Shown: positions 1 through 15,592, counted from the first letter of the stretch. The stretch: DNA of 64,000 bases from a virus (IMGVR_UViG_3300033233_000014:47630-111629), one strand, 5' to 3'. Notes: a model not told the origin generated them from the sequence alone. Numbers and translations are program-made.

Positions 1-1273
1 CGCCGTACTTGGCGAGCTTCTGGGCGTTCGTGAGCACCGTGTCCCGCGGGTTGAGCGTCGCCGTGTGCGGCACGGTGTCGAACGGGATGACCTCGGCCTC
101 GTGGTTCTTCCGCAGGATGGCCGACGCGATGAGCGCCGCCACGTCCACGCACCGCGCCACCGTCGTCGCCCCCACGCCCCGCGCGCCCGTGATCGGCGAG
201 GACATCGAGCCCGACACGTCGACGCAGACGTAGACCTTCCCCTCAAGCGCCGGCACGTTCTCCGTGGCGACCTCGAGCGCATCCTGCAGCGCCTCCGTGA
301 CCGCCTTCGGGATCCGCCCCTCGATGAACTGGCCCTTCGCGTCCCGCACCTGCCCCGTGGTCGCGAGATAGGAGACGAGCAACTGGTACGGGAACACCTT
401 GGCCTTCCGAATCGTCTCCGGGTCGCGGAGCTTCCCCGCGATCTCCGCGGTGAGCCCCTCGACCTCGAAGACGCCCTTGCGGGCGTAGTTGTTGAGGTTG
501 ATCCGGGTCTGGTGGAACCAGCCGCGCCGGGCCACCGCCACCCAATGCTCCCGGGTGAGCGGCAGGCTGGTCAGCATCTGCATCGGCACGTCCGGCGCGT
601 CCTTGCCCGCCGGATCCTTCTTGAACGCCTCGTACTCCCGGATGGCCGCTGGCAGCCGCGGATCGTCGCCCGCGACCTTCCCGATGAGCCAGCCGTAGAG
701 CGCCGTCGCCGCCTCGCCCATCGGCTTCGGCCGGGCCAACTTGATGATGTCCCCGAGCGACGGGTTGGTGCCCACGCTGTCCCGCAGGAGGACGTGGGGC
801 CGCCGGACTGCGAACCAGGCGTGGATGAGCCGCCGGACGACGCCCTTGAGCGCCCGGTGCTTGCCCATCTTGCCGCTTCGCAGGATCTGGACGACGTTGC
901 GGAGCATCTTCCCGTTCGTGACAACGTGCGGCCACGCCCGCTCGAACCACTTCGCGCCCTCCGCCCCCTGGTTGCGGAGCCACGCGAGCAGGACGGCCGG
1001 CATGTCCTTCATGAAGCCGCGCTGCCGGGCGTAGACCGCCACCTTGGCGACGAACTCGGGCGTCACGTCGACGTGCTTGAGCAGGATGAGGACGGTGTCG
1101 AGTTGCGCCTCGCCGCTGGCGTAGAACGCCTCGCCGAGGCAGCCCGTGGCCGCCAACTGGGCGAGCGCGTGCCGCGGGGTGAGCGTGTACGCCAGCCCGC
1201 CGGCCTCGTTGCGATCGGTCGTCTCGGGCGGGGTGGCCCCCCGCCGGGACTGGAACAGGGACTTGTTTGCCAT
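1..1273 (-). CDS. rsr: Ro60/Rsr-like TROVE-domain RNA-binding protein with vWA domain (3' end runs off window)
   Basis: Hand translation from ATG at 1273 (AAGGAGG SD): MANKSLFQS...NEAGGLAY...HALAQLAATGC...FMKDMPAVLLA...KVFPYQLL...YVCVDVSGSM (vWA MIDAS). Absent from the ORF track because it has no stop in the window. Confidence 0.92.
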   Translation of the reverse strand, partial: MANKSLFQSRRGATPPETTDRNEAGGLAYTLTPRHALAQLAATGCLGEAFYASGEAQLDTVLILLKHVDVTPEFVAKVAVYARQRGFMKDMPAVLLAWLRNQGAEGAKWFERAWPHVVTNGKMLRNVVQILRSGKMGKHRALKGVVRRLIHAWFAVRRPHVLLRDSVGTNPSLGDIIKLARPKPMGEAATALYGWLIGKVAGDDPRLPAAIREYEAFKKDPAGKDAPDVPMQMLTSLPLTREHWVAVARRGWFHQTRINLNNYARKGVFEVEGLTAEIAGKLRDPETIRKAKVFPYQLLVSYLATTGQVRDAKGQFIEGRIPKAVTEALQDALEVATENVPALEGKVYVCVDVSGSMSSPITGARGVGATTVARCVDVAALIASAILRKNHEAEVIPFDTVPHTATLNPRDTVLTNAQKLAKYG

Positions 1274-1354: not shown

Positions 1355-1429
1355 TGGGGTGACCGGCGAGAGTCGCACTCGCGCGGCGAGAGTCACAGTC
1401 TCGTGCCCTACTGTTAGGCGACGGTCACC
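1355..1429 (-). tRNA. tRNA-His(GUG)
   Basis: CGAGA-CT GTG AC-TCTCG; 8-bp acceptor with G-1:C73; CCA encoded; T-loop TGCGACT. Confidence 0.9.
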
Positions 1430-1451
1430 ATCGTCGCGTCGATCCGCGGGC

Positions 1452-1526
1452 TGGAGCTGAAGGTGGGATTTGCACCCACATAGCCCGCCTTACGAGAGCG
1501 GTGCATCGCTGTTCTGCCACTTCAGC
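1452..1526 (-). tRNA. tRNA-Thr(CGU)
   Basis: CCGCT-CT CGT AA-GGCGG; CCA; T-loop TGCAAAT. Confidence 0.88.
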
Positions 1527-1529
1527 ATC

Positions 1530-1603
1530 TGGGGCCCAAGGGCGGGATCGCACCGCCGCTGGCGAGGTACAGGCTCGCCGTGCTGCTGCTACACCACTCG
1601 GGC
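1530..1603 (-). tRNA. tRNA-Thr(UGU), C33 variant
   Basis: GCGAG-CC TGT AC-CTCGC; CCA; T-loop TGCGATC. Confidence 0.8.
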
Positions 1604-1679
1604 TGGAGCCACCGGCGGGAATCGGACCCGCGACCTCCTCCTTACCAAGGAGGCGCTCTTCCATCTGAGCTACAGCGGC
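1604..1679 (-). tRNA. tRNA-Thr(GGU)
   Basis: CCTCC-TT GGT AA-GGAGG; CCA. Confidence 0.92.
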
Positions 1680-1753
1680 TGGCTGCCCCGGTACGATTCG
1701 AACGTACACGGCGAGGGTCAAAGCCTCGCGGCCTACCATTAGCCGACAGGGCA
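1680..1753 (-). tRNA. tRNA-Gln(UUG)
   Basis: CGAGG-CT TTG AC-CCTCG; U1:A72; CCA. Confidence 0.92.
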
Positions 1754-1780
1754 GAAGTCGCCGAAGACAGTCGGGCGCGC

Positions 1781-1846
1781 TGGACTGCGGGGTATCCCTC
1801 CCTCGACTCCCGCTTCTCGGCGGAAGCCGAGGTAGGGATCCCGCAG
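1781..1846 (-). ncRNA. CCA-terminated long hairpin RNA (candidate)
   Basis: CTGCGGG...CCCGCAG-T-CCA closing a nearly continuous rod. Confidence 0.5.
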
Positions 1847-1849
1847 ATC

Positions 1850-1924
1850 TGGAGCGGCCAGCGGGTTTCGCACCCGCGACTTCCAGGTTGGGAACCTGGC
1901 GCTCTACTACTGAGCTACGGCCGC
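1850..1924 (-). tRNA. tRNA-Gly(CCC)
   Basis: CCAGG-TT CCC AA-CCTGG; U73-CCA; T-loop TGCGAAA. Confidence 0.9.
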
Positions 1925-2106
1925 ATGCATGCGCCAGAGACAGCTGGCGCCCCCTGGCCCGCGTATCGCCGCAGCGCCAACGAGAGCCCCTCGTGAGCAC
2001 CGCTACGCATCACCGTCGTGCGTTGGCCCCGTGTGAATCTTGGATCGTGAAGTCGACGGCCGTCAGCGAACACTTGGGGGTTCCAAGGTTGCTGACCCCA
2101 CAGAAC

Positions 2107-2180
2107 TGGAGCGGGCCGCGAGAATCGAACTCGCGTCCTCGGGTTGGAGGCCCGACGCCTTGCCACTAGACGAGGCCCGC
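2107..2180 (-). tRNA. tRNA-Gly(UCC), C33 variant
   Basis: TCGGG-CC TCC AA-CCCGA; GCG acceptor start, U73-CCA. Confidence 0.88.
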
Positions 2181-2240
2181 ATCGTGCGCCGGCCTGCCTC
2201 AGCATGCCAGCGCCTCTCGAGACAGCGAGAGCCTGAAGAG

Positions 2241-2331
2241 CCGCCTCTCCCCCGACTGTTCTGCCGTTAAACTACTCGCGCGTCTACTGCACAGGGGAGG
2301 ATTCGAACCTCCATCTTTCTAAGGGGGACGG
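2241..2331 (-). ncRNA. circularly permuted tRNA-like RNA (YrlA-type effector domain)
   Basis: 5'-3' order: T arm GGAGG-TTCGAAT-CCTCC, loop-closed acceptor-like stem, D arm GTTT-AACGGCA-GAAC; ends pair CCGTC/GGCGG. Confidence 0.65.
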
Positions 2332-2335
2332 GATC

Positions 2336-2410
2336 TGGAGCGGGTAGTGGGTTTCGCACCCACGGCCTCCACCTTGGCAAAGTGGCGCTCTACTACTGAG
2401 CTACACCCGC
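2336..2410 (-). tRNA. tRNA-Gly(GCC)
   Basis: CCACT-TT GCC AA-GGTGG; CCA; T-loop TGCGAAA. Confidence 0.9.
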
Positions 2411-2417
2411 GATCTTC

Positions 2418-2503
2418 TGGCGGAGGGGCGGGGACTCGAACCCCGGACGGCGTGAGCCGCGCTCGCCTTCCAAGCGAGTTCCTCGTCCGGCCGGACCCCC
2501 TCC
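2418..2503 (-). tRNA. tRNA-Ser(GGA)
   Basis: CTCGC-TT GGA AG-GCGAG; long variable arm; G73-CCA; atypical D arm. Confidence 0.85.
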
Positions 2504-2645
2504 ACTCGACCAGGGACCGGAGTTCCGATGAAAGGAAGCCTGCCTCGGCTGGTCGAACCCGAGGCTTGCCCAGGCGTCGCGCCTGATCGGATTGTCGGGC
2601 ACTTCCGGCGCACCCGACGGCGGGCCGAAGGGAATGCCCGGCCGC

Positions 2646-2731
2646 TGGCGGAAGAGGAGGGAATCGAACCCCCACGGGAGTTACCCGGACGGTTTTCGGG
2701 ACCGTTGCGCTAGCCGTTACGCCACTCTTCC
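2646..2731 (-). tRNA. tRNA-Ser(CGA), C33 variant
   Basis: ACGGT-CC CGA AA-ACCGT; long variable arm; G73-CCA. Confidence 0.87.
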
Positions 2732-2735
2732 GAGG

Positions 2736-2811
2736 TGGTGGACCCGGCGGGAGTTGAACCCGCGATCTCCGGAATGCCATTCCGGCGTTCTTCCATCTGA
2801 ACTACGAGCCC
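2736..2811 (-). tRNA. tRNA-Ala(GGC)
   Basis: CCGGA-AT GGC AT-TCCGG; G3:U70; ACCA. Confidence 0.92.
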
Positions 2812-2887
2812 TGGTGGACCTGGCCGGACTCGAACCGGCGATCTCCGCGTTGCGAACGCGGCGCTCTTCCAACTGAGCTACAAGCCC
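2812..2887 (-). tRNA. tRNA-Ala(CGC)
   Basis: CCGCG-TT CGC AA-CGCGG; G3:U70; ACCA. Confidence 0.93.
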
Positions 2888-2890
2888 ATC

Positions 2891-2965
2891 TGGTGGACGC
2901 ACCCGGCTTTGCTCCGGGCACCCGACCGTGCAAGGGTCGTGTGATGCTGACTTCACCATGCGCCC
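2891..2965 (-). tRNA. tRNA-Ala(UGC)
   Basis: CGACC-CT TGC AC-GGTCG; G3:U70; divergent T-loop AGCAAAG. Confidence 0.85.
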
Positions 2966-2968
2966 AGC

Positions 2969-3052
2969 GGATGCGTGCTACCGTTACACCACAAGACCCG
3001 TGCTCCCGAAGGAGTCGAACTTCTTGGCGGGAGTCGAACCCGCACTTCATCC
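2969..3052 (-). ncRNA. circularly permuted tRNA-like RNA opened at the anticodon
   Basis: GGATG-AAGT-T arm GCGGG TTCGACT CCCGC-CAAGA...TCTTG-TG-D arm GTGT AACGGTA GCAC-G-CATCC. Confidence 0.7.
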
Positions 3053-3055
3053 TTG

Positions 3056-3130
3056 TGGAGATCCCGGCAGGACTTTCACCTGCGTCGTTCACCCTTTGCA
3101 GGGGTGCGCCTGATTCTCGGCCACGGGATC
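3056..3130 (-). tRNA. tRNA-Cys(GCA)
   Basis: CACCC-CT GCA AA-GGGTG; U73-CCA; T-loop TGAAAGT. Confidence 0.87.
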
Positions 3131-3134
3131 GTGC

Positions 3135-3208
3135 TGGCAGGAGCGCAGGGAGTTGAACCCTGGACCTCAGATTTGGAGGCTGAGATGTTTCCGTTACACC
3201 ACACTCCT
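3135..3208 (-). tRNA. tRNA-Trp(CCA)
   Basis: loop CT CCA AA; A1:U72, G73; one mismatch at 31:39. Confidence 0.85.
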
Positions 3209-3213
3209 TCTGC

Positions 3214-3289
3214 TGGCGACCTCGGCAGGACTCGAACCTGCAGCCTCCGGGGTAGAAACCCGGCGCCGTTCCTGTTCGGCTACGAGGCC
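3214..3289 (-). tRNA. tRNA-Arg(UCU)
   Basis: CCGGG-TT TCT AC-CCCGG; CCA. Confidence 0.88.
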
Positions 3290-3292
3290 ATC

Positions 3293-3377
3293 TGGTCTTC
3301 GGGGGGAGAGTCGAACTCCCACGGGTTTCCCCACTAGGTTCTGAGCCTAGCGCGACTGCCAGTTCCGCCACCCGAAG
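3293..3377 (-). tRNA. tRNA-Leu(CAG)
   Basis: CTAGG-CT CAG AA-CCTAG; long variable arm; ACCA. Confidence 0.9.
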
Positions 3378-3381
3378 ATGC

Positions 3382-3456
3382 TGGTACGGGCACGGGGTAT
3401 CGATCCCCGTTTCTCGCGCTGAAAACGCGATGTCTTAGCCAGTAGACGATGCCCGC
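3382..3456 (-). tRNA. tRNA-Glu(UUC)
   Basis: TCGCG-TT TTC AG-CGCGA; CCA. Confidence 0.87.
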
Positions 3457-3459
3457 ATC

Positions 3460-3542
3460 TGGTCCGCGCGGCAGGAGTCGAACCTGCACGCCGAAGCACC
3501 TGTTCTTGAGACAGGCGGGTCTGCCATTTCCCCCACGCGCGG
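3460..3542 (-). tRNA. tRNA-Leu(CAA)
   Basis: CCTGT-CT CAA GA-ACAGG; variable arm; ACCA. Confidence 0.9.
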
Positions 3543-3546
3543 ATGC

Positions 3547-3640
3547 TGGCGGAGAGGATGGGTGTCGAACCCACCGTCGCCGTTGAGGCGACCCTGGTTT
3601 AGCAAACCAGTCCAGCTAACCAACGATCTGGCTCCTCTCC
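3547..3640 (-). tRNA. tRNA-Ser(GCU)
   Basis: CTGGT-TT GCT AA-ACCAG; long variable arm; GCCA. Confidence 0.9.
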
Positions 3641-3643
3641 ATC

Positions 3644-3729
3644 TGGTGCGCGAGAGAGGACTCGAACCTCCATGCCTTTCGGCACAAGACCCTCAATCTT
3701 GCGTGTCTACCAAATTTCACCACTCGCGC
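3644..3729 (-). tRNA. tRNA-Leu(GAG)
   Basis: CAAGA-TT GAG GG-TCTTG; variable arm; ACCA. Confidence 0.93.
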
Positions 3730-3805
3730 TGGTCGGCCGAGGAGGGTTCGAACCTCCGACCTTCTGCGTGTAAGGCAGACGCGCTTCCGACTGTGCCACC
3801 GGCCG
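3730..3805 (-). tRNA. tRNA-Val(UAC)
   Basis: TCTGC-CT TAC AC-GCAGA; ACCA. Confidence 0.92.
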
Positions 3806-3813
3806 ATCTTCTC

Positions 3814-3887
3814 TGGCGGTGCGTACGGGAGTTGAACCCGTACTAGCAGATCGACAATCTGCCGTGCTGCCGCTACACCAACGCACC
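3814..3887 (-). tRNA. tRNA-Asp(GUC)
   Basis: GCAGA-TT GTC GA-TCTGC; GCCA. Confidence 0.9.
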
Positions 3888-3890
3888 CGC

Positions 3891-3965
3891 TGGTTGCCCC
3901 GCGAGGATTCGAACCTCAGATTTCCTGGTTCAGAGCCAGGCGTCCTACCGTTGGACGACAGGGCA
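3891..3965 (-). tRNA. tRNA-Gln(CUG)
   Basis: CCTGG-CT CTG AA-CCAGG; CCA. Confidence 0.93.
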
Positions 3966-3966
3966 G

Positions 3967-4039
3967 TTGGAGCGGCGGGAGTTGCACCCGCGTCTCGACT
4001 GTATAGGAGTCGCGCCTGAGACTACTCGGCCACGCTCCG
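3967..4039 (-). tRNA. tRNA-Ile(UAU), atypical (C33, C1/A72 mismatch, no encoded CCA)
   Basis: CGACT-CC TAT AC-AGTCG; acceptor GGAGCG/CGCTCC; T-loop TGCAACT. Confidence 0.72.
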
Positions 4040-4115
4040 TGGTCGTTCGGGAAGGAATCGAACCTTCCTGACCTACCTTATCAGGGTAGTGCCTGAACCA
4101 CTAGGCTACCGAACG
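4040..4115 (-). tRNA. tRNA-Ile(GAU)
   Basis: CTACC-CT GAT AA-GGTAG; ACCA. Confidence 0.92.
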
Positions 4116-4288
4116 AGAGCGACTCGGGCCGGCTTTGGCAGGCACTTGGGTAGCGCCGCACAGACCGGCGGGGTGAAACCCGGATCAGCGCCAGCAGAGC
4201 CGTACGGACGTGCCGCCGTTGATGCTGGACCACCACTCTACGATGAGGCTTCGGTCTGATGACCGCGCCTTCCCCTTCTCCGCGTCGC

Positions 4289-4365
4289 TGGTAGATCCGA
4301 TAGGACTTGAACCTATGGCCTCCTGCGTGTGAAGCAGGCGCTCTGCGCAACTGAGCTACGGATCT
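4289..4365 (-). tRNA. tRNA-Val(CAC)
   Basis: CCTGC-TT CAC AC-GCAGG; ACCA. Confidence 0.9.
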
Positions 4366-4368
4366 ATC

Positions 4369-4502
4369 GGTGACGACGCAAAGGATGTCGTTGCCGTCCG
4401 CACCGGATCGATGAAGCCGGCGTGTCGCTAGGCACCGGAGCAGGCGCACTGTCCATCTCCGGCCGAGTCTCTGCCGAGGCATCGTCCTCGTTCGTCGTCA
4501 CC
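4369..4502 (-). ncRNA. Y-RNA-like rod (candidate 4)
   Basis: perfect 10-bp terminal stem GGTGACGACG/CGTCGTCACC; GACGAACG fits the bacterial Y RNA GNCGAAN(0-1)G motif; opposite strand CTTTG. Confidence 0.55.
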
Positions 4503-4580
4503 TGGTCGGACTGGCCGGATTCGAACCGGCGGCCTCCTGAACCCCATTCAGGCGCGCTAGCCAGCCTGCGCTACAGCCCG
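4503..4580 (-). tRNA. tRNA-Pro(GGG)
   Basis: CCTGA-AT GGG GT-TCAGG; C1:G72; ACCA. Confidence 0.93.
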
Positions 4581-4583
4581 AGC

Positions 4584-4653
4584 GAGAACGGCCCGACAAG
4601 GGACGCCGAGAGTTCAGTTTAGATGTACTCCCAGCAGCATCCGGATCGTTCCC
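4584..4653 (-). ncRNA. minimal Y RNA (Ro-binding stem plus short loop)
   Basis: shares CGGATGCTGCTGGGAGTACA / CTCTCGGC..CTTGTCGG with two neighbours; termini pair. Confidence 0.7.
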
Positions 4654-4729
4654 TGGTCGCGCGGGTCGGGTTCGAACCGACACCCTTCGGCTCCCAAAGC
4701 CGACGCTCCACCGCTTGAGCTTCCGCACG
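4654..4729 (-). tRNA. tRNA-Pro(UGG)
   Basis: TCGGC-TT TGG GA-GCCGA; C1:G72; ACCA. Confidence 0.9.
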
Positions 4730-4732
4730 CAC

Positions 4733-4852
4733 ACGAGGCCCCGGACAAGAGAGTCGAGAGGAATGCCTTCCAGAGGTTGCCCTCTCAGGCGAGCCCTTGC
4801 GGGCTTCAAGATTTGAACTTGGTGTACTCCCAACAGCATCCCGATGCCTCGC
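4733..4852 (-). ncRNA. Y RNA with T-arm plus GNRA-hairpin effector domain
   Basis: same stem module (GGGATGCTGTTGGGAGTACA / CTCTCGACTCTCTTGTCCGG); internal CAAG-TTCAAAT-CTTG and two GCAA-capped hairpins. Confidence 0.7.
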
Positions 4853-4930
4853 TGGTCGGGCTAGCAGGATTTGAACCTGCGGTCTCTTGCTCCCGAAGCA
4901 AGCGCGTTGACCAGGCTACGCTACAGCCCG
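4853..4930 (-). tRNA. tRNA-Pro(CGG)
   Basis: CTTGC-TT CGG GA-GCAAG; ACCA. Confidence 0.93.
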
Positions 4931-4933
4931 AAT

Positions 4934-5085
4934 GAAGACGACCGACAAGAGAGCCGAGAGAACCGGGTTGCCCCGGAATCCTGGCGCTCTACCGTTGAGC
5001 TACCGCACGATCTATTCGCGCGAGTGAGGAGTCGAACCTCACGACCTCCAGGGCCATGTACTCCCAGCGGCATCCGGCCGCCTTC
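4934..5085 (-). ncRNA. yrlA: YrlA-type Y RNA (Ro-binding stem plus permuted tRNA-like domain)
   Basis: stem module GCCGGATGCCGCTGGGAG / CTCTCGGCTCTCTTGTCGGTC enclosing T arm GTGAGG TTCGACT CCTCAC, closed acceptor stem and D arm GCTC AACGGTA GAGC; Ro60 gene in the same unit. Confidence 0.85.
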
Positions 5086-5160
5086 TGGTGTTCCGGGCAG
5101 GAGTCGCACCTGCAGCCGTCTCGTTAGGACCGAGTCGCGCTTCTGTTGCGCCACCGGAAC
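5086..5160 (-). tRNA. tRNA-Arg(CCU)
   Basis: CTCG-GT CCT AA-CGAG; ACCA; T-loop TGCGACT. Confidence 0.8.
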
Positions 5161-5165
5161 ATTGC

Positions 5166-5243
5166 TGGTTGCGCGGGCGAGACTTGAACTCGCAGCCTTC
5201 GGCTTCGGAGGCCGACGCTCTATCCAAGTTGAGCTACCGCACA
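5166..5243 (-). tRNA. tRNA-Arg(CCG)
   Basis: TCGGC-CT CCG AA-GCCGA; ACCA. Confidence 0.92.
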
Positions 5244-5247
5244 GCAG

Positions 5248-5862
5248 TTACAGACCCGCGAGCATCGCGGGGGAAAAGACCGACTCAGACTTGACCTTCC
5301 GACGAACCACTCGGAAGCCCGCCTTGCGGGCCGCCCGATCCTTGCGGCAGTCGACTTCCCGCTGCCTCGGATCCTTGTGGTACGACCCGTCGAACTCCAC
5401 GATCACCTTCACGTCGAGAAGCGCGAGGTCGAAGACGAACGCCCCAATCTCGAACTCGAACTCGAACCGCCTTCCGGCCGCAACGAGCGTCTCCCGAAGC
5501 GCCGCGTACTTCCACTCCTCCCGGCGCTTGAGCGTCTCGGCCGGCGAGAAGAGGTTGTGTGCGTTCTCAAGCCCGGAGCGACGCGCAGCCTCGCGCCGCT
5601 CCTCGCTCACGCTCCCCTTGCTGGCACAAGCACGAGAGCAGAACCGCTTAGACCGACGGCGGGTGGACGTGCTGAACACGATTCCGCAGACCGGGCACGT
5701 CATCTCGAATGTCTTCGCCTTCTTCGGCGCGTTGCCCGCGACCGCTGTGCATGAGAGTCCGCAGAAGAACCGGCGGCCAAGCCTTCGGGCACGGTTGACT
5801 TCCCCGATCCGCTTCTCGACTTCCTTCCCACAGCGGGCGCACCGAACAATGGTAGTCGCCAC
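5248..5862 (-). CDS. DUF559/Vsr-like endonuclease with N-terminal zinc-ribbon repeats (putative free-standing homing endonuclease)
   Basis: CxxC...FCxxxC twice, then FDLA...IVEFDGSYH...DCRKD...GFRVVR; GTG start chosen downstream of the tmRNA. Confidence 0.8.
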   Translation of the reverse strand: MATTIVRCARCGKEVEKRIGEVNRARRLGRRFFCGLSCTAVAGNAPKKAKTFEMTCPVCGIVFSTSTRRRSKRFCSRACASKGSVSEERREAARRSGLENAHNLFSPAETLKRREEWKYAALRETLVAAGRRFEFEFEIGAFVFDLALLDVKVIVEFDGSYHKDPRQREVDCRKDRAARKAGFRVVRRKVKSESVFSPAMLAGL

Positions 5863-5914
5863 GCCCCCATCGTAGCCGCGATGTAGGCGTGGCGCAATAC
5901 CCGATGTAGGCGAT

Positions 5915-6287
5915 TGGAGGCGGCGAGATTTGCACTCGCGTCTCAAAGACCTTCGCCCGAAGCCTCTACGCGCGTGTCCCTGCTTCTCGTCTTTCCTCGG
6001 GCGCAGGACAGCCCATCGTCAGGCGTCTCTTGCCAAGCACCCAGTCTTTCCTGGGTGTCAGACCCTGGTGCCTTCCCTGCGCCGGGCCGTGCGCAAGGCG
6101 GGGTTGCTCGAGGTCGGCTAGGCCGCGAGCCGCAGGCCCCGAGCCGCGTGAGCGGCCCGGAAGTCCACGGTGGTCACCTTGAGGTGACTGGCTGATGAAT
6201 TGTGGTCCGCTTGTTGACGGGGCCTGCTGACCAACCCCGGCGCGCATCCCCGGACTCCGATCTCCGATCGAAAACTAGTTCGCCCCC
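5915..6287 (-). ncRNA. ssrA: tmRNA
   Basis: 5' GGGGGCGAA..TTCGA; 3' T arm plus CGCCTCC-A with G3:U70; internal frame ending ...RGLRLAA-TAG (6192-6118); 373 nt. Confidence 0.92.
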
Positions 6288-6291
6288 ATGC

Positions 6292-6367
6292 TGGTACTCC
6301 CGAGGGGATTCGAACCCCACGTTTCCACCGTGAGAGGGTGGCGTCCTGCCGGCTAGACGACGGGAGC
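6292..6367 (-). tRNA. tRNA-Glu(CUC)
   Basis: CCACC-CT CTC AC-GGTGG; CCA. Confidence 0.93.
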
Positions 6368-6466
6368 ATTGCGGCGAGGCGGCGCCGCGCCGGAGAGGGC
6401 CACGAGAGTTGCACCCGCGCGCCAGCAAGCATGGCATGCCTGCTGGCGTCATCTCTGATCCTTCCC

Positions 6467-6502
6467 TGGTGGATCCGGTGGGACTCGAACCCACGCGAAC
6501 CC
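6467..6502 (-). ncRNA. 36-nt tRNA minihelix with alanine identity (candidate)
   Basis: GGGTTCG-C-GTGGG-TTCGAGT-CCCAC-CGGATCC-ACCA: 7-bp acceptor with G3:U70, T arm, A73, CCA. Confidence 0.65.
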
Positions 6503-6508
6503 GTGTTA

Positions 6509-6584
6509 TGGTTGCCCGGGAGGGATTCGCACCCTCAGCCTCGTCCTTAAGAGGGACTTGCTCCGCTAGTTGAGCTACCGAGCA
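6509..6584 (-). tRNA. tRNA-Lys(CUU)
   Basis: GTCC-CT CTT AA-GGAC; ACCA; T-loop TGCGAAT. Confidence 0.87.
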
Positions 6585-6596
6585 TCTGAAAGTCTC

Positions 6597-6672
6597 TGGC
6601 TCCACGGGTAGGGCTCGAACCTACATCATCCTGGGTAACAGCCAGGCGCTCAGCCAGTTGAGCTACCGTGGA
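6597..6672 (-). tRNA. tRNA-Asn(GUU)
   Basis: CCTGG-CT GTT AC-CCAGG; GCCA. Confidence 0.93.
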
Positions 6673-6677
6673 CCGGA

Positions 6678-6752
6678 TGGTCACGCCGAGAGGAGTCGAA
6701 CCTCTTTGGCAGGATCCGTAGTCCTGTGCCTGATCCGATCGGCCACGGCGTG
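6678..6752 (-). tRNA. tRNA-Arg(ACG)
   Basis: CAGGA-CT ACG GA-TCCTG; ACCA. Confidence 0.92.
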
Positions 6753-6798
6753 AATGCAGACGCGGTGTTCGCGCACCGCGCCCACTCGAACGTCTCGT

Positions 6799-6814
6799 CG
6801 AACTGTCAGAGAAC
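6799..6814 (-). promoter_or_regulatory. boxA-like antitermination element
   Basis: GTTCTCTGACAGTTCG after a hairpin, just downstream of a promoter; near-copy at 7356-7371. Confidence 0.55.
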
Positions 6815-6859
6815 CTCGGTCAAGTCGCGCCTCGGCGCTCGACCACGCACGAAACCTGG

Positions 6860-6888
6860 ATTCTACCACATCAGCGAATCTTTGTCAA
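6860..6888 (-). promoter_or_regulatory. sigma70-type promoter of the tRNA array
   Basis: TTGACA-17 bp-TAGAAT with extended -10 TG. Confidence 0.85.
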
Positions 6889-6893
6889 GACGC

Positions 6894-6981
6894 TGGTGGG
6901 CCGTGGTGGAGTTGAACCACTTGCTCGCCGCTCCCCATATCAGAGCGACCGCTTTACAGGCGGCCGGGGAGAACACGTCCC
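6894..6981 (-). tRNA. tRNA-Tyr(GUA) lacking a canonical D arm
   Basis: GCCGC-CT GTA AA-GCGGT; T arm and ACCA normal; only about 10 nt between acceptor and anticodon stems; long variable region. Confidence 0.75.
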
Positions 6982-7054
6982 GGTGGGCCCGGAGGGAGTC
7001 GGACCCTCGCCTTCCGGTTAAAAGCCGGCTGCTCGGCCGCTGAGCTACGGACCC
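6982..7054 (-). tRNA. tRNA-Lys(UUU)
   Basis: CCGG-CT TTT AA-CCGG; ends ACC abutting tRNA-Tyr. Confidence 0.87.
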
Positions 7055-7124
7055 GCGTGGACTACGCGGCCCGTTTCGCCAGCGCGGCGCCGGCCCCGGT
7101 ATAGCCCACCGCCGCGGCGCGCCC

Positions 7125-7199
7125 TGGTTGCCGCGGCTGGGGTCGAACCAGCAGCCCCCCGCATGTCAAACGGGTGCTCTTCCGCTGAGCTACGCGACA
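7125..7199 (-). tRNA. tRNA-Val(GAC)
   Basis: CCCGT-TT GAC AT-GCGGG; ACCA. Confidence 0.9.
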
Positions 7200-7207
7200 C
7201 CCGATGC

Positions 7208-7282
7208 TGGTAGCGGGGGCGAGGATCGAACTCGCGAACTCCAGCTTATGAGGCTGGCATGATACCGCTTCACCACCCCGCG
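7208..7282 (-). tRNA. tRNA-Met(CAU), initiator-like acceptor
   Basis: CCAGC-CT CAT AA-GCTGG; CGCGGGG acceptor with C1/U72 mismatch. Confidence 0.88.
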
Positions 7283-7491: not shown

Positions 7492-7965
7492 TCACCCACA
7501 CCGGCTGTTCCGCGACTCCCCCAGCATCTCGAGCGCCAGATCCACCTGGGCCTCCGACCAGCGCCCCTCGCGTTCCCAGTTATCAAGCATGTTCCAAGCG
7601 ATCTGGCGGCGCCGGCCCCGCAGCCCCATCGCGGCGACCGTCAGGAGTTCGTAGATCATCACGGTGAAGTCGTCCACGAGCATGCGCTCGACGAGCACGC
7701 CGTCCGTGATCCGCCTCCGGAGTTGGATCTCGACCATCGGCGGCAGCACGAAGCCCCGCGCGATGTGCTCCCGGCAGAGGCGCACGAAGCCATCATCGTC
7801 GCCGATCGGCTCGCCCTGGAGCACCAGCGCACACTCGAGGCCCTGCAGGTGCTCCAGCAGCCCCGCGTGGCGCTCCCGCGCTTGGGCCACCCGCCCTTCG
7901 ACGCGCGCCTCGGCGTGGGCTTCGCGCCGGCGCCGCCGCATCCGAGGATCGGTGCGCGGATCCAT
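7492..7965 (-). CDS. hypothetical protein
   Basis: ORF with start overlapping the upstream stop; MDPRTDP... Confidence 0.65.
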   Translation of the reverse strand: MDPRTDPRMRRRRREAHAEARVEGRVAQARERHAGLLEHLQGLECALVLQGEPIGDDDGFVRLCREHIARGFVLPPMVEIQLRRRITDGVLVERMLVDDFTVMIYELLTVAAMGLRGRRRQIAWNMLDNWEREGRWSEAQVDLALEMLGESRNSRCG

Positions 7966-8174
7966 CAGGCCGCCACCGCGATCTCGGCGATGATCTTGTG
8001 GCACTTGACGCAGGCCACCCGCACGACGCCCTGCCCCACCACGTAGGACGCCTCGACGGCGGCCCGTGGATGGCAGCGCCCGTGGAAGAACATCTCGGGG
8101 TGGGCGTGTCCATCCGCACAGTCCAGGCACCCGCCGCCCATCGCCTTGTCGAGTTGCTTCTTGTTCAGCGCCAT
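7965..8174 (-). CDS. small Cys/His-rich hypothetical protein
   Basis: MALNKKQLD...CLDC...CVKC; coupled start/stop. Confidence 0.65.
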   Translation of the reverse strand: MALNKKQLDKAMGGGCLDCADGHAHPEMFFHGRCHPRAAVEASYVVGQGVVRVACVKCHKIIAEIAVAA

Positions 8175-8833
8175 CAGCGTCCTCCTCGCGCCAGCCTGTT
8201 CGGCACGATGGGCTGGTGCAGCCAATGTTCATCCGTCTGGACATGCTCCGCGCGCACGAACTTCGCCACCGATCGCTCGAAGTCCGCATCGGCGAACTCG
8301 TCGGACACGCGCACGACCACGCCCTCGATCTCGTCGCCGAAGGTCGGCCCCGCGCTCCGGATGAGGCCCGCGGTGAAGCGATCGACGGCTGCGCCGTCCG
8401 GCAGTTTGAACTGCGCCAGCGTCGGGACGACCTGCAAGTCGAGGCCGAGCGCGAGGCCGATGGTATCGGCCACACTCAGCCAGACGTGCCGCACCTCGTC
8501 CCGCGCCCCGAAGATGAGGAAGTAGGACGGGAGATCCCAGTACGCGATCGAGTGCCGCGCGTAGAGCCACTCCCCGAAGAGGGACACGCCGGCCGGGATC
8601 CGATGCCGAACTTCCGCCCACAGCGCCTTCGCCCGATTGAAGGAGGCATGCGTCGGCGGCCCCTCGTGCGACCGCGCGAAGATGCCCTCGCGCGTGAAGC
8701 AGCAGTTCGACCCGTCCATCTTCTCGGAGAAGTGGAGCAGCCGCCCCGCGAGGGCGCCCGCCGACTCGAGCCGGAGATCGTCCCGCGCCTCGGCGGGGCT
8801 CGACGGCAGATGCGCGATCCGCGGATACTTCAC
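8174..8833 (-). CDS. ATP-dependent RNA ligase, Rnl2-like family
   Basis: KYPRIAHLP N-terminus, motif I EKMDGSN, FGEW, EGVVVR, AKFV. Confidence 0.87.
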   Translation of the reverse strand: MKYPRIAHLPSSPAEARDDLRLESAGALAGRLLHFSEKMDGSNCCFTREGIFARSHEGPPTHASFNRAKALWAEVRHRIPAGVSLFGEWLYARHSIAYWDLPSYFLIFGARDEVRHVWLSVADTIGLALGLDLQVVPTLAQFKLPDGAAVDRFTAGLIRSAGPTFGDEIEGVVVRVSDEFADADFERSVAKFVRAEHVQTDEHWLHQPIVPNRLARGGR

Positions 8834-12939: not shown

Positions 12940-12960
12940 GACTGCAGACAGTCTGCAGTC
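12940..12960. promoter_or_regulatory. 21-bp palindrome (operator candidate)
   Basis: GACTGCAGAC-A-GTCTGCAGTC; recurs at 42229 and imperfectly at 44157. Confidence 0.6.
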
Positions 12961-15592
12961 ACGCCTCGTGGGCGAAGAGGGGGACGTTGCCGGCCAGACG
13001 GCGCCGCGCGATCTGGGCGTACTCGGGGTTCAACTCGGTGCCGATCGCGTTCCGGCCGAAGCAGTTGGCGACGAGCAACGTGGTGCCGCTGCCCGCGAAG
13101 GGATCGAGGACGGTGCAAGGCACCGGCTCATGCGGCCTCCACGTCGCGATCGGCTGTCCTTCCGGCGTGAACCCGCCGGTGTCGATCTCCTGCCCGCACT
13201 TGCACGTCGGTTCCCATCCCGCGTCCTGTCGACGGTAGGTGCCATCGTGCGACTTCGTAGCGATCGACGCCCCATACTTGAGATTGGCTTCCCGAGTGTT
13301 GGGATGCCGGCTCCAGTCCTTGCCGATCGTTCCGCCCGCCGCCACCACGACACGCCGCCACGGCGCCCCGCACTCCGGGCAGCAGCCATGCTCGCTCGAG
13401 CCCGCCTTCACGCACGGAATGACGAGCGCCTTGGGGAACGTGGCGAAATGGGCCTCGGGACAGGGCTCGGTGGCGATCTCCCAGACGGAGCGGATGTTGC
13501 GCCCTTGGAGCATGCGCTCGAGCGCCTCGGGATCGCCCCACATGCGATTCGGATTGGCGATCGCCTCTCGCCCGACCCGCACGGCGCCCTCGTGTCGGTA
13601 CTGCTTCCGCGGCGCGTCGCTCGAATCGCTGCGCTCGACCGGCGCCGTCTCCGTCACGCCCGGGAACATCTCGACTGTCGGGTTCTTGGGCTGCATCTCC
13701 GCCAGCCGAGCCGCCGCTGCCTCTGCGTCGCCCACCGACCGCTTCTGGCCGATGTGCGTCGCACCGCTCGACTTGAGCAGCGGATCCTCCGTCTCCTTGT
13801 GCTTCCCCCCGATCCGGTTCTTCTTCTCGATTACCTTCCGCAAGTCGCTCATGTTGGAGCGCAGCGGCTCCAACACGGCATGCCGATCGAAGAAGTACCG
13901 CTCGCTCTTGGCGAGTAGGAAGAGGAACTCGTGGCTCCGCGTCGGCCGATCCTCCACGCTCTCCGGCATGGGATTCGGCTTGGAGTTGTGCGTCAGCACG
14001 CCGGACGCAAGCGCGAAGACATGCGGCTCGTCTGCGACACCAAGATCCCACACCTCACGGCACCGCGCCTTCCGAATCTCGATGATCTCCCCCATGTCGC
14101 GATCGTTGTGGTGCCCGCTGCGCTCCGTGCGGATCTCGCCCTTGAAAGTCGAGCGGCGGCCGTTCTGGAACCGTGCCCACCCGGGGTTGAGCGTGAGTGT
14201 GTACCCGAGGCGGGCGCACGCAACACGAAGATCGCGCTCGAGGCTATAGTTCCGGCAGAAGCCAAGACGCCATCGCCGGTTCTTCGCGTCCCAATGCCCA
14301 TCGCCCTCAAGGTAGCCCAGGACGAACGCGGCGAGGAACCGATTCGAGTAGCGCCATACGACCGGCGCGAACGCCTTGTCGTGAGCGGTTCGGCCGGACA
14401 CGAGTTCATCAAGGATCGCGAACAACACGCGGCCGTAGACCCGGATGTTCATACAGTTCCCCGACACCGTCCGAGTAGCCGATCCGCCGTACTTTCGCGA
14501 AACACGCTGCACGCGCTCCCATCTCGCTTCTTCTTTCGCGTGGCCGGCAATCTGAATCGTGCTTCCGGCACGCGATCCCTCGGCGAGATAGAGGCCAGCG
14601 AACCATGCAGCGTCCTCGTCGAGCGCGCAGTCCCTTGGGTTCTCCGGTTCGGGCAGGGCAACACGGGAAAGCACGTCTCCGGGCCGCATTTCCGACGCCG
14701 CGAGAAGCCCACGCGCCGTAGGGAAACGGTGTGTCGTGGTGCAGGAGATCCTCTCGCCGCTCCGGAGGACGATTTCAACTTCGTTACCCGAGCGCGGTGA
14801 CATCGACATGCCGAGCAGCCGAGTCCACCGACTCCCGTTCCAGAGCTGCACCGACTCCGGCGCGAGACGGGCGAGATCCCTGACCATCGTGACCGTCTCG
14901 CCTTTCGCGGTTTTCGCGTAGACCCATGTCCCGCCGGAGAGGCACCACACGATGTCGGAACGCAGCCACCAGCCATCCTCCTGCAGCGCGAAGGCCACGC
15001 GCCAGGGCATGCCAATCAAGTCCTTCGTCTTGATCCCACCCCAGTCCCTCCGCCAGCGCGCATGCTTCTCCGGCGCCACCTGTTCCGGCCGCGGCGGCTC
15101 GTCCCCGCGCTCGGCCCGCAGCCCGGTGTACGTCCGCGCCCCGCCGTTCGAACAGAACGAGTCCCCGAGGTTGAGCCAGCAGGTGCCCTCGGGCCGCAGC
15201 ACGCGCCGGACGGCCCGGAAGACCTCGACGAGATGCTGGACGTAAAGAAATGGCGAAGGCTCGAGGCCGAGATTCCCCAGCCATGCCTCGCACTTCCGGC
15301 AGACGGCATCCTCGCGCCAGCGCGCCTTGCGGATGCGCTCGGCGTTCTCCGGCCCCGGCTCGTGGAACGCCTCGCCCGACGATCCCGCCCCGCCCCCACC
15401 CTCGACGTAGTACCGACTCTCCTGCCACTCATGCGCGCAGGCCGGATCGGAACCACCCCACACCTGGGGCTCCGTGTCGTAGCTTCTCAACCCAAAATAT
15501 GGAGGCGACGTCATCACGGTGTGGATCGAGTCGGCCGGCAACGTAGCGAGTTGCACCCGCACGTCGCCCTCAAGGATGCGCCACGTCGACAT
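12959..15592 (-). CDS. beta-class amino (N4-C/N6-A) DNA methyltransferase containing an intein
   Basis: TSPPY catalytic motif, HFATFP, DPFAGSGTT SAM motif. Confidence 0.92.
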   Translation of the reverse strand: MSTWRILEGDVRVQLATLPADSIHTVMTSPPYFGLRSYDTEPQVWGGSDPACAHEWQESRYYVEGGGGAGSSGEAFHEPGPENAERIRKARWREDAVCRKCEAWLGNLGLEPSPFLYVQHLVEVFRAVRRVLRPEGTCWLNLGDSFCSNGGARTYTGLRAERGDEPPRPEQVAPEKHARWRRDWGGIKTKDLIGMPWRVAFALQEDGWWLRSDIVWCLSGGTWVYAKTAKGETVTMVRDLARLAPESVQLWNGSRWTRLLGMSMSPRSGNEVEIVLRSGERISCTTTHRFPTARGLLAASEMRPGDVLSRVALPEPENPRDCALDEDAAWFAGLYLAEGSRAGSTIQIAGHAKEEARWERVQRVSRKYGGSATRTVSGNCMNIRVYGRVLFAILDELVSGRTAHDKAFAPVVWRYSNRFLAAFVLGYLEGDGHWDAKNRRWRLGFCRNYSLERDLRVACARLGYTLTLNPGWARFQNGRRSTFKGEIRTERSGHHNDRDMGEIIEIRKARCREVWDLGVADEPHVFALASGVLTHNSKPNPMPESVEDRPTRSHEFLFLLAKSERYFFDRHAVLEPLRSNMSDLRKVIEKKNRIGGKHKETEDPLLKSSGATHIGQKRSVGDAEAAAARLAEMQPKNPTVEMFPGVTETAPVERSDSSDAPRKQYRHEGAVRVGREAIANPNRMWGDPEALERMLQGRNIRSVWEIATEPCPEAHFATFPKALVIPCVKAGSSEHGCCPECGAPWRRVVVAAGGTIGKDWSRHPNTREANLKYGASIATKSHDGTYRRQDAGWEPTCKCGQEIDTGGFTPEGQPIATWRPHEPVPCTVLDPFAGSGTTLLVANCFGRNAIGTELNPEYAQIARRRLAGNVPLFAHEA
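13985..14944 (-). mobile_element. intein with LAGLIDADG homing endonuclease (320 aa)
   Basis: DIVW|CLSGGT...VWDLGV...LASGVLTHN|SKPNP; AWFAGLYLAEG and FVLGYLEGDG blocks. Confidence 0.92.

What the first reader, a model, noticed from the sequence alone, without database searches (positions are those of the whole stretch)
1355..6584. Co-varying non-canonical elbow (A18/G55) in ten tRNAs and the tmRNA
Seen: His, Thr(CGU), Thr(UGU), Gly(CCC), Gly(GCC), Ala(UGC), Cys, Ile(UAU), Arg(CCU), Lys(CUU) and the tmRNA have G at T-loop position 55 (e.g. UGCGAAA). Every one lacks the D-loop GG and has A at the G18 position (AG, or AU in Cys). In Cys the second pair also appears to switch (U19 with A56). tRNAs with U55 or C55 mostly keep GG; Val(CAC) and the D-armless Tyr are exceptions. 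Known: G18-Psi55 and G19-C56 are near-invariant, and the elbow is read by TruB/TrmA, RNase P, T-boxes and the ribosome. Inference: systematic, compensated remodelling across unrelated isoacceptors points to selection, e.g. escape from an elbow-reading host nuclease or independence from modification.
Basis: partly seen in the sequence, partly recalled or inferred. Interest (0 to 1): 0.8.

Follow-up and report, generated by a model that had tools for sequence, protein, structure and literature searches.

The report
Phage tRNAs with rewired A18/G55 elbow
About a third of this uncultured phage's 42 tRNA genes, and its tmRNA, build the corner of the L-shaped molecule from a matched A18/G55 pair instead of the near-universal G18/U55; they look like working tRNAs built on a widespread alternative design that I could not find described in print.

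Summary
All ten listed tRNAs and the real tmRNA (window 5914-6287, minus strand) have G at T-loop position 55 and A at D-loop position 18. No other tRNA in the array has either. Two more cases (Met CAU, Phe GAA) lie just upstream of the window. In this genome the split is 11/0/0/29 (Fisher p = 4e-10). Rfam's covariance model places the A and the G in the G18 and U55 columns.

The swap is neither local nor phage-specific. A D-arm plus T-loop pattern finds at least 119 viral contigs and at least 120 cellular contigs (both scans capped). Among unselected tRNAs on viral contigs the split is 60/3/9/773 (odds ratio about 1700). The only tRNA-Phe of a SAR11 genome has this elbow, so it works in translation. 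Streptomycetaceae keep it in tandem tRNA-Gly(UCC) genes.

The T-loop becomes UGCRA. This is the generic UGNRA T-loop of riboswitches, which takes an intercalating adenosine bonded to the G.

My reading is a functional alternative elbow that removes U55, and with it the pseudouridine-55 site and the U54-U55 site cut by published T-loop nucleases. Escape from a nuclease is plausible and testable, but nothing here shows it.

This scan has noted the same swap on other DNA many times. I found no paper describing it.

The parts
1355..7282 (-). Co-oriented array of 40 tRNA genes plus tmRNA; 10 tRNAs and the tmRNA carry the A18/G55 elbow
   Evidence: ARAGORN; Rfam RF00005 and RF00023
1355..1428 (-). 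tRNA-His(GUG), D-loop AACAGUA, T-loop UGCGACU (A18/G55)
   Evidence: CM alignment (53.2 bits)
1452..1526 (-). tRNA-Thr(CGU), D-loop GAACAGCGA, T-loop UGCAAAU (A18/G55)
   Evidence: (51.7 bits)
1530..1603 (-). tRNA-Thr(UGU), D-loop AGCAGCA, T-loop UGCGAUC (A18/G55)
   Evidence: (44.9 bits)
1850..1924 (-). tRNA-Gly(CCC), D-loop AGUAGUA, T-loop UGCGAAA (A18/G55)
   Evidence: (65.5 bits)
2336..2410 (-). tRNA-Gly(GCC), D-loop AGUAGUA, T-loop UGCGAAA (A18/G55); paralogue of Gly(CCC) at 83% identity; 5' 27 nt identical to the Streptomyces G55-type tRNA-Gly(UCC)
2891..2965 (-). tRNA-Ala(UGC), G3:U70 kept, D-loop AGUCAGCA, T-loop AGCAAAG (A18/G55, also A54)
   Evidence: (41.5 bits)
3056..3130 (-). tRNA-Cys(GCA), D-loop GAGAAUCA, T-loop UGAAAGU (G55 and A56; probably A18-U19)
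   Evidence: (46.2 bits, D-loop alignment ambiguous); same combination in L241
3966..4039 (-). tRNA-Ile(UAU), D-loop GAGUAGUCUCA, T-loop UGCAACU (A18/G55); no complete encoded CCA
   Evidence: Rfam 48.3 bits
5086..5160 (-). tRNA-Arg(CCU), D-loop AACAGAA, T-loop UGCGACU (A18/G55)
   Evidence: Rfam 51.7 bits
5914..6287 (-). tmRNA with the same swap (5' ..CUAGUUUUCGA.., T-loop UGCAAAU); tag frame ends ..RGLRLAA*
   Evidence: Rfam RF00023 66.1 bits with alignment; tag translation
6509..6584 (-). tRNA-Lys(CUU), D-loop AACUAGCG, T-loop UGCGAAU (A18/G55)
   Evidence: Rfam 54 bits
1604..1679 (-). tRNA-Thr(GGU) with C55 (UCCGAUU) and GG kept: a second way of lacking U55
6982..7054 (-). tRNA-Lys(UUU) with C55 (UCCGACU) and GG kept
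6402..6418 (-). G55-type T-arm hairpin (GCGGG UGCAACU CUCGU) inside an unannotated RNA-like stretch between tRNA-Glu(CUC) and the Ala minihelix
   Evidence: hairpin scan; sequence

Best explanation
These are working tRNAs, and a working tmRNA, built on an alternative elbow. In the standard elbow, G18 slides between T-loop bases 57 and 58 and bonds to pseudouridine 55. Here A18 takes that place and G55 is its partner. The outer G19-C56 pair is kept; this is the flat face read by RNase P, the ribosome and T-boxes. In Cys it is probably swapped to U19-A56.

The T-loop becomes UGCRA. That is the generic UGNRA T-loop of riboswitches, in which an intercalated adenosine makes two hydrogen bonds to the sugar edge of the G at loop position 2. 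The L-shape is therefore kept by a known RNA motif.

Consequences that follow from the sequence:
- There is no U55, so no pseudouridine 55 and no TruB site.
- There is no G18, so no Gm18 site.
- There is no U54-U55-C56 string.

Shown here: the strict covariation, its wide occurrence, and its conservation in chromosomal core tRNAs.

Inferred: the hydrogen-bond geometry, the normal function of these particular phage tRNAs, and any selective advantage.
For: - Covariation in this genome is 11/0/0/29, p = 4e-10.
- CM-based numbering agrees.
- Unselected tRNAs on viral contigs split 60/3/9/773, odds ratio about 1700, p = 4e-78.
- With identity-independent numbering (7-nt D-loops only, 273 tRNAs), 18x55 reads G/U 204, A/G 50, G/C 7, G/G 5, U/U 4, C/G 2, A/U 1.
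- Pattern scans of viral contigs give A18+G55 in at least 119 contigs (capped), A18+U55 in 109 and G18+G55 in 14.
- The G55 tRNAs have intact stems and good CM scores. All but Ile UAU encode CCA.
- They cover 12 different anticodons. None duplicates a U55 gene of this phage except CAU.
- They are not close paralogues, except Gly CCC and Gly GCC.
- In SAR11 HIMB1412 (32 tRNAs) the only tRNA-Phe is A18/G55, and Val GAC is A18/G55 as well. The Phe gene is kept, with compensatory stem changes, in 30 of 81 Pelagibacteraceae genomes searched.
- Streptomycetaceae keep a G55-type tRNA-Gly(UCC) in 39 of 81 genomes.
- Structural precedent: the UGNRA T-loop with an intercalating A bonded to the sugar edge of G2. 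In a selection experiment the only active variant without that A used a tRNA-like UUAAA loop (bioRxiv 10.1101/2022.12.26.521914).
Against: - There is no experimental data on these RNAs, no structure of an A18/G55 tRNA, and no expression data.
- The best-studied natural G55 tRNAs, the staphylococcal non-proteogenic tRNA-Gly, do not bind ribosomes (PMC7826273). They lack the A18-G19 dinucleotide and have other deviations.
- The 18-55 pair is reported to matter for translocation (Pan et al. 2006, seen only as a reference in PMC4810234).
- Ala UGC (A54) and Phe (C54) deviate further from the motif.
- The hydrogen-bond scheme is taken over from riboswitch T-loops, not observed in a tRNA.
Confidence: 0.8

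Rival explanations
1. Anti-defence adaptation. The swap was selected because it removes the U54-U55 site that T-loop-cutting nucleases need, so the phage's own tRNAs and tmRNA survive when host tRNAs are cut. The A18 change restores the fold.
For: - CbCash, a CRISPR-associated Schlafen nuclease, cuts tRNA just 5' of U55. Single changes of U54 or U55 abolish cutting, and the authors state that whether phage tRNAs are targeted is open (PMC13462974).
- CdiA-CT E479 cuts between the conserved T and pseudouridine of the T-loop (PMC9086364).
- Some phage contigs have nearly complete G55 sets: L105 18/18 and L043 14/15.
- The tmRNA carries the swap too.
- Two more tRNAs here lack U55 in another way, through C55.
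- Phage tRNAs are known to escape anticodon nucleases through loop changes (PMC10264068, listed).
Against: - Only 12 of 42 tRNAs here are changed, and ten amino acids have no G55 tRNA.
- The same elbow is kept in chromosomal core tRNAs of free-living bacteria.
- Five cultured phages with large arrays have none.
- The host and its defences are unknown.
- No cleavage test exists for any G55 tRNA.
Confidence: 0.2
2. Near-neutral alternative fold. A18/G55 is simply a second stable solution that fast-evolving accessory tRNAs reach through the tolerated A18/U55 intermediate. It then persists and spreads by duplication and gene transfer, with no specific benefit.
For: - The A18/U55 single-change form is common (109 viral contigs, at least 56 distinct tRNAs), while G18/G55 is rare (14 contigs).
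- Arrays are mixed within one phage.
- The state occurs in at least 16 class I amino-acid families and in Leu and Tyr.
- In 49 of 122 cases the nearest relative of a G55 tRNA is a U55 tRNA.
- The elbow is present in core tRNAs of two bacterial families.
Against: - Whole sets converted in some phages, and the parallel change in the tmRNA, suggest a directional pressure.
- The rarity of G55 in sampled cultured phages (0 of about 103) shows it is not freely drifting everywhere.
Confidence: 0.35
3. Independence from host tRNA modification. The elbow is stable without pseudouridine 55, m5U54 or Gm18, which helps tRNAs made in bulk late in infection.
For: - G55 cannot be isomerised by TruB and A18 cannot become Gm18. 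This follows from the chemistry of those enzymes as reviewed in PMC7912444.
- UGNRA loops with an intercalated A fold without modification in riboswitches.
Against: - Most tRNAs of the same phage keep U55.
- There is no measurement of stability.
- Unmodified canonical tRNAs are generally functional in vitro (own knowledge).
Confidence: 0.15
4. Non-translational tRNAs. Like the staphylococcal cell-wall tRNA-Gly, the G55 genes supply amino acids to something other than the ribosome, or serve the neighbouring Ro60/Y-RNA system.
For: - Staphylococcal non-proteogenic tRNA-Gly have UGC or UGU T-loops and avoid EF-Tu and the ribosome (PMC7826273).
- Streptomyces has tandem G55-type tRNA-Gly(UCC) with a bulged T stem beside one canonical copy.
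- The five tRNAs flanking the phage Ro60 gene are all G55.
Against: - Twelve different anticodons are involved, with regular T stems.
- These are the phage's only genes for those anticodons.
- The sole tRNA-Phe of SAR11 has this elbow.
- A Ro60 homologue lies near G55 tRNAs in only 6 of 120 cellular loci and 0 of 119 viral loci.
Confidence: 0.05
5. Pseudogenes or a numbering artefact.
For: Ala UGC was missed by Rfam's fast filters in the whole-window scan. Ile UAU lacks an encoded CCA.
Against: - CM alignment confirms the columns.
- Stems are intact, and identity elements are kept where checked (G3:U70 in Ala).
- The covariation is strict in hundreds of unrelated genes.
Confidence: 0.01

Closest known systems
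Canonical bacterial and phage elongator tRNAs (Rfam RF00005), elbow G18-pseudouridine 55 / G19-C56 / T54-A58
   Same: Same cloverleaf, lengths and encoded CCA. G19-C56 is kept, U54 and A58 are mostly kept, and CM scores are well above threshold.
   Different: Position 18 is A and position 55 is G, so the T-loop reads UGCRA instead of UUCRA. There is no pseudouridine-55 site and no Gm18 site.
Generic T-loop motif of FMN and cobalamin riboswitches and other RNAs (consensus UGNRA or YGNRA with an intercalated adenosine; bioRxiv 10.1101/2022.12.26.521914)
   Same: Loop sequence U-G-N-R-A, with an adenosine from a partner loop placed where it can intercalate between loop positions 4 and 5 and bond to G2.
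   Different: Here the motif sits in a tRNA, with the third loop base still making the G19-C56 tertiary pair. No structure shows the contacts in this setting.
Staphylococcal non-proteogenic tRNA-Gly (NP1-3; S. epidermidis Ia/Ib; PMC7826273)
   Same: Natural tRNAs with a UGC or UGU T-loop and no pseudouridine.
   Different: Those are Gly(UCC) only. They lack the A18-G19 dinucleotide, have T-stem pairs that weaken EF-Tu binding, and do not serve the ribosome. Here twelve anticodons with regular stems are involved.
Phage tRNAs that escape anticodon nucleases by anticodon-loop changes (PMC10264068)
   Same: Phage-encoded tRNAs that differ from host-type tRNAs at a site a nuclease could read.
   Different: The change here is in the elbow, not the anticodon loop. 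No nuclease has been tied to it.
Bacterial tmRNA (Rfam RF00023)
   Same: Full-length match, tRNA-like domain, and a tag frame ending in LAA.
   Different: The tRNA-like domain carries the same A/G swap (UAG for UGG; UGCAA for UUCGA). CCA is not encoded.

Membership tests
tRNA (Rfam RF00005) | Cloverleaf scoring above the curated threshold (29 bits) | tested here: met
   All ten window genes score 41.5-65.5 bits. Met CAU scores 50 bits and Phe GAA 56.4 bits.
tRNA (Rfam RF00005) | Acceptor end and identity elements fit for use (CCA; G3:U70 in Ala) | tested here: met
   CCA is encoded in 11 of 12 genes; Ile UAU lacks it. Ala UGC has G3:U70.
Canonical tRNA elbow | G18 with U55 (pseudouridine 55) | tested here: not met
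   A18 with G55 in all 12 genes and in the tmRNA.
Canonical tRNA elbow | G19-C56 Watson-Crick tertiary pair | tested here: met
   G19 and C56 are present in 11 of 12 genes. Cys has A56 with a U available at 19.
Canonical tRNA elbow | U54-A58 reverse Hoogsteen pair | tested here: inconclusive
   U54 and A58 are present in 10 of 12 genes and in the tmRNA. Ala UGC has A54 and Phe has C54. Pairing geometry cannot be tested with these tools.
Generic UGNRA T-loop with intercalated adenosine | Loop sequence Y-G-N-R-A | tested here: met
   11 of 12 tRNAs and the tmRNA fit; Ala reads AGCAA. Across 148 G55 loops: U54 84%, C56 93%, R57 99%, A58 91%.
Generic UGNRA T-loop with intercalated adenosine | Adenosine intercalated between loop positions 4 and 5 and bonded to the sugar edge of G2 | not testable with these tools
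   Only the strict A18/G55 covariation supports it. No 3D method for RNA was available.
Staphylococcal-type non-proteogenic tRNA-Gly | Restricted to Gly(UCC), beside a canonical proteogenic copy | tested here: not met
   Twelve anticodons are involved and none is Gly(UCC). No canonical duplicate exists in the phage except for CAU.
tmRNA (Rfam RF00023) | Full-length model match and a tag frame with a C-terminal degron | tested here: met
   66.1 bits against a 47-bit threshold, model positions 1-374. The tag frame ends ..RGLRLAA*.

The most novel reading that the evidence does not exclude
The A18/G55 elbow is a counter-defence device. It makes phage tRNAs and the phage tmRNA immune to immune nucleases that cut the universal U54-U55 site of the T-loop (Cash-type Schlafen nucleases, E479-type toxins). 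The compensating A18 keeps them usable by the ribosome. The canonical-elbow tRNA mimics in the same array stay readable as host-type tRNA.
Probability: 0.2. Interest if true: 0.85.

Novelty: new variant of a known kind. Interest (0 to 1): 0.62.

Why it matters
G18-pseudouridine 55 is taught as a near-invariant contact of all tRNAs. TruB, TrmH, RNase Z, CCA-adding enzymes and the ribosome work on or near it.

A strictly compensated A18/G55 replacement occurs in hundreds of phage tRNAs, in a phage tmRNA, and in the only tRNA-Phe of SAR11. That points to a second natural design of the tRNA corner, one that borrows the riboswitch-type T-loop.

It offers three things:
- a natural test set for asking what pseudouridine 55 and the 18-55 contact are for;
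- ready-made candidates for tRNAs resistant to the recently described T-loop nucleases of CRISPR type III systems, a question those authors leave open;
- a warning for tRNA annotation and for modification mapping that assumes U55.

Tried and rejected
- **Close relatives of the phage.** Megablast of the array against cultured phages found nothing. Distant blastn gave only single-tRNA matches. Protein-seeded searches of viral contigs with the Ro60 homologue and with the frame at 7492-8475 found no relative. PHROGs named almost none of ten large frames. Orthologue-by-orthologue comparison was therefore not possible.
- **Cultured phages.** The arrays of Mycobacterium phage I3, Phaeobacter MD18, Rhodobacter RcXuper and virus Rctr197k, and the two tRNAs in the stretch of Agrobacterium phage Atu_ph07 that I fetched, contain no G55. 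I dropped the idea that the swap is general to large phage arrays.
- **Recent switches.** A search for same-anticodon pairs that differ in elbow state at 88% or higher core identity gave only 3 pairs. The number of independent switches cannot be counted from these data.
- **General link to Ro60.** A homologue lies near G55 tRNAs in 6 of 120 cellular loci and 0 of 119 viral loci. Rejected as a general rule.
- **ARAGORN's permuted tmRNA at 2108-2828.** Rejected as an artefact that overlaps six tRNAs.
- **Literature.** Four searches for A18/G55, G55 T-loops and phage tRNA elbows found no description of the covariation.
- **tmRNA pattern scan.** I did not scan for swapped tmRNAs in viral contigs, because a pattern with only 13-14 fixed bases would return mostly chance hits.

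Full report
**What the window is.** The window is the last 64 kb of a 111,629-base uncultured virus record (IMG/VR, CheckV completeness 73%). No close relative exists among cultured phages. The minus strand of window 1355-7282 carries 40 tRNA genes. A genuine tmRNA lies at 5914-6287 (Rfam 66 bits, full length). ARAGORN's 'permuted tmRNA' at 2108-2828 overlaps six tRNAs and is an artefact.

- Each of them has AG (Cys: AU) where GG normally stands.
- Every tRNA with U55 or C55 keeps GG, except Val CAC and the aberrant Tyr.
- The tmRNA reads CUAGUUUUCGA against the consensus cuGGaUUCGA, and its T-loop is UGCAAAU.
- Its tag frame ends ..RGLRLAA*, a normal degron ending.
- Two more cases lie just upstream of the window, beyond a Ro60 gene: Met CAU and Phe GAA.
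- That makes 12 of 42 tRNAs plus the tmRNA.
- On the ARAGORN set the table is 11/0/0/29, Fisher p = 4e-10.

**The numbering is not the cause.** It does not. Rfam's covariance model aligns the A to the G18 column and the G to the U55 column. Only the Cys D-loop is ambiguous (posterior about 0.5). Its proposed U19-A56 switch is supported indirectly, because a Lys UUU tRNA on viral locus L241 has the same A18-U19 / G55-A56 combination. That contig also shows A19-U56, U19-A56 and C19-G56.

**These are not decaying copies or recent duplicates.**
- The G55 genes score 41-65 bits and have intact stems.
- All but Ile UAU encode CCA, and Ala keeps G3:U70.
- They cover twelve anticodons. The phage has no U55 gene for any of them except CAU.
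- Apart from Gly CCC and Gly GCC (83% identical), each G55 tRNA is no more like another G55 tRNA (53-68%) than like a U55 tRNA (53-72%).

**The swap is general.** I scanned 2.9 million viral contigs with one D-arm context joined to a T-loop.

| Combination | Viral contigs |
|---|---|
| A18 + U55 | 109 |
| G18 + G55 | 14 |

- To avoid selection bias I looked at the other tRNAs on the fetched contigs. They split 60 (A18/G55), 3 (A18 without G55), 9 (G55 without A18) and 773 (neither). The odds ratio is about 1700 and p = 4e-78.
- Numbering that ignores base identity (7-nt D-loops only, 273 distinct tRNAs) gives G/U 204, A/G 50, G/C 7, G/G 5, U/U 4, C/G 2 and A/U 1.
- Some contigs are mixed like this phage: 9/20, 7/22 and 10/34. 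Others are almost wholly converted (14/15 and 18/18), including class II Leu and Tyr.
- The state occurs in at least 16 class I amino-acid families.
- Five cultured phages with large arrays have none, so it is lineage-dependent.
- The commonness of A18/U55 and the rarity of G18/G55 suggest that A18 comes first.

**It is not phage-specific, and it works in translation.**
- The main groups are tRNA-Phe(GAA) of Pelagibacteraceae, tRNA-Gly(UCC) of Streptomyces, tRNA-Thr(GGU) of CPR bacteria, and accessory tRNA arrays in several MAGs.
- In SAR11 HIMB1412, with 32 tRNAs, the only tRNA-Phe is A18/G55. Val GAC is A18/G55 as well.
- The Phe gene is kept, with compensatory changes in the anticodon and T stems, in 30 of 81 Pelagibacteraceae genomes searched. 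Many of those genomes are incomplete.
- Streptomycetaceae keep a G55-type tRNA-Gly(UCC) in 39 of 81 genomes. It often stands in tandem, next to one canonical Gly(UCC) elsewhere in the genome.

**How it probably works.**
- Outside tRNA, T-loops have the consensus UGNRA. They take an intercalated adenosine between loop positions 4 and 5, and that adenosine makes two hydrogen bonds to the sugar edge of the G at position 2.
- In a selection experiment the only active variant without that adenosine used a tRNA-like UUAAA loop (bioRxiv 10.1101/2022.12.26.521914).
- The G55 loops collected here read U54 (84%), G55, C56 (93%), R57, A58 (91%). This is the same motif.
- So A18/G55 is the general T-loop lock placed in a tRNA, with the outer 19-56 pair untouched.
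- This step is inferred from covariation and precedent, not seen in a structure.

**Why it is there remains open.**
- The change removes U55 and the U54-U55-C56 string.
- CbCash cuts just 5' of U55 and is blocked by single changes of U54 or U55. Its authors say that whether phage tRNAs are targeted is unknown (PMC13462974).
- CdiA-CT E479 cuts between the conserved T and pseudouridine of the T-loop (PMC9086364).
- Against it here: only 12 of 42 tRNAs are changed, ten amino acids have no G55 tRNA, and free-living bacteria keep the same elbow in core genes.
- A near-neutral alternative fold and independence from modification are live rivals.
- A non-ribosomal role, as for the staphylococcal cell-wall tRNA-Gly with UGC loops (PMC7826273), is unlikely for twelve anticodons with regular T stems.

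**Context in the array.**
- The tRNA-mimic parts of the Y-RNA-like elements and the Ala minihelix mostly keep UUCGA: 5 of 7 T-arm hairpins outside tRNA genes.
- The five tRNAs flanking the Ro60 gene are all G55.
- A general Ro60 link did not hold in my loci.

**Earlier notes of this scan.** After I had finished my own tests I looked up the scan's earlier notes. They report the same A18/G55 swap in many other phage and bacterial accessory arrays, and likewise found no paper on it. My results agree with them. They add four things: the SAR11 and Streptomycetaceae core-gene cases, the counts of single-change forms, the structural precedent, and the second T-loop nuclease.

**Verdict.** The feature is real and statistically overwhelming. 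It is most likely a functional alternative tRNA elbow, a new variant of a known kind. Its selective reason is unresolved.

Noticed in passing
window 2-1273 (-), continuing upstream to L001 9191-10903 (-); L001 8429-8564 (-): A 570-aa Ro60/Rsr-like protein (weak TROVE and Ro60 vWA hits) lies directly downstream of the array. It is followed by a YrlA-like Y RNA (Rfam 45 bits, below the 69-bit threshold) whose tRNA-like T-loop is canonical UUCGAUU.
   Followed up: partly
L283, L292, L399-L406 (Streptomyces chromosomes): Streptomycetaceae carry 1-4 tandem G55-type tRNA-Gly(UCC) genes (A18/G55). By my hand pairing their T stem has a bulged base. One canonical tRNA-Gly(UCC) lies elsewhere in the genome. 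This mirrors the staphylococcal proteogenic and non-proteogenic split, and Streptomyces cell walls have a glycine bridge, so these are candidate cell-wall tRNAs (inference).
   Followed up: partly
L305 and L369-L398 (Pelagibacter HIMB1412): The sole tRNA-Phe(GAA) (D-loop AGGAGUA, T-loop UGCGAAU) and tRNA-Val(GAC) (AAUAGUA, AGCGUAA) of a 32-tRNA SAR11 genome use the A18/G55 elbow.
   Followed up: yes
L364 (phage I3 Gly GCC and Asp), SAR11 Val GAC, L043, L068: T-loops of the form A-N-C-G-U-A-A (AUCGUAA, AGCGUAA, AGCGUUA) suggest a second swap, A54-U58 in place of U54-A58. It occurs with either elbow type.
   Followed up: no
window 1604-1679 and 6982-7054 (-): Thr GGU and Lys UUU have C55 with G18-G19 kept. 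The same G18/C55 combination recurs on other viral contigs: 13 of 845 non-seed tRNAs and 7 of 273.
   Followed up: partly
window 6368-6466 (-): An unannotated structured-looking stretch lies between tRNA-Glu(CUC) and the Ala minihelix. It contains a G55-type T-arm hairpin (6402-6418).
   Followed up: no
window 2975-3044 (-): A fragmentary YrlA-like permuted tRNA mimic (Rfam 18 bits, E = 0.17) with a canonical UUCGA T-loop and a GG D-loop lies between Ala UGC and Cys, both of which are G55 tRNAs.
   Followed up: partly
L241 (IMG/VR contig, GC 60%): One phage contig shows all four Watson-Crick forms of the 19-56 pair (G-C, A-U, U-A, C-G) beside A18/G55 tRNAs. It also encodes a Ro60 homologue (tblastn 6e-13).
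   Followed up: partly
window 12959-15592 (-): An 877-aa DNA methylase frame is interrupted by an intein-like insert. The hits to the intein splicing and LAGLIDADG families are both below Pfam's cut-off.
   Followed up: no
window 5914-5920 (-): The tmRNA gene does not encode CCA after its discriminator base, whereas nearly all tRNAs of the array do.
   Followed up: no
window 4289-4365 (-): Val CAC has U55-C56 but only a single G in its D-loop (AGUUGCGCA). It therefore lacks either G18 or G19 without any visible compensation.
   Followed up: no
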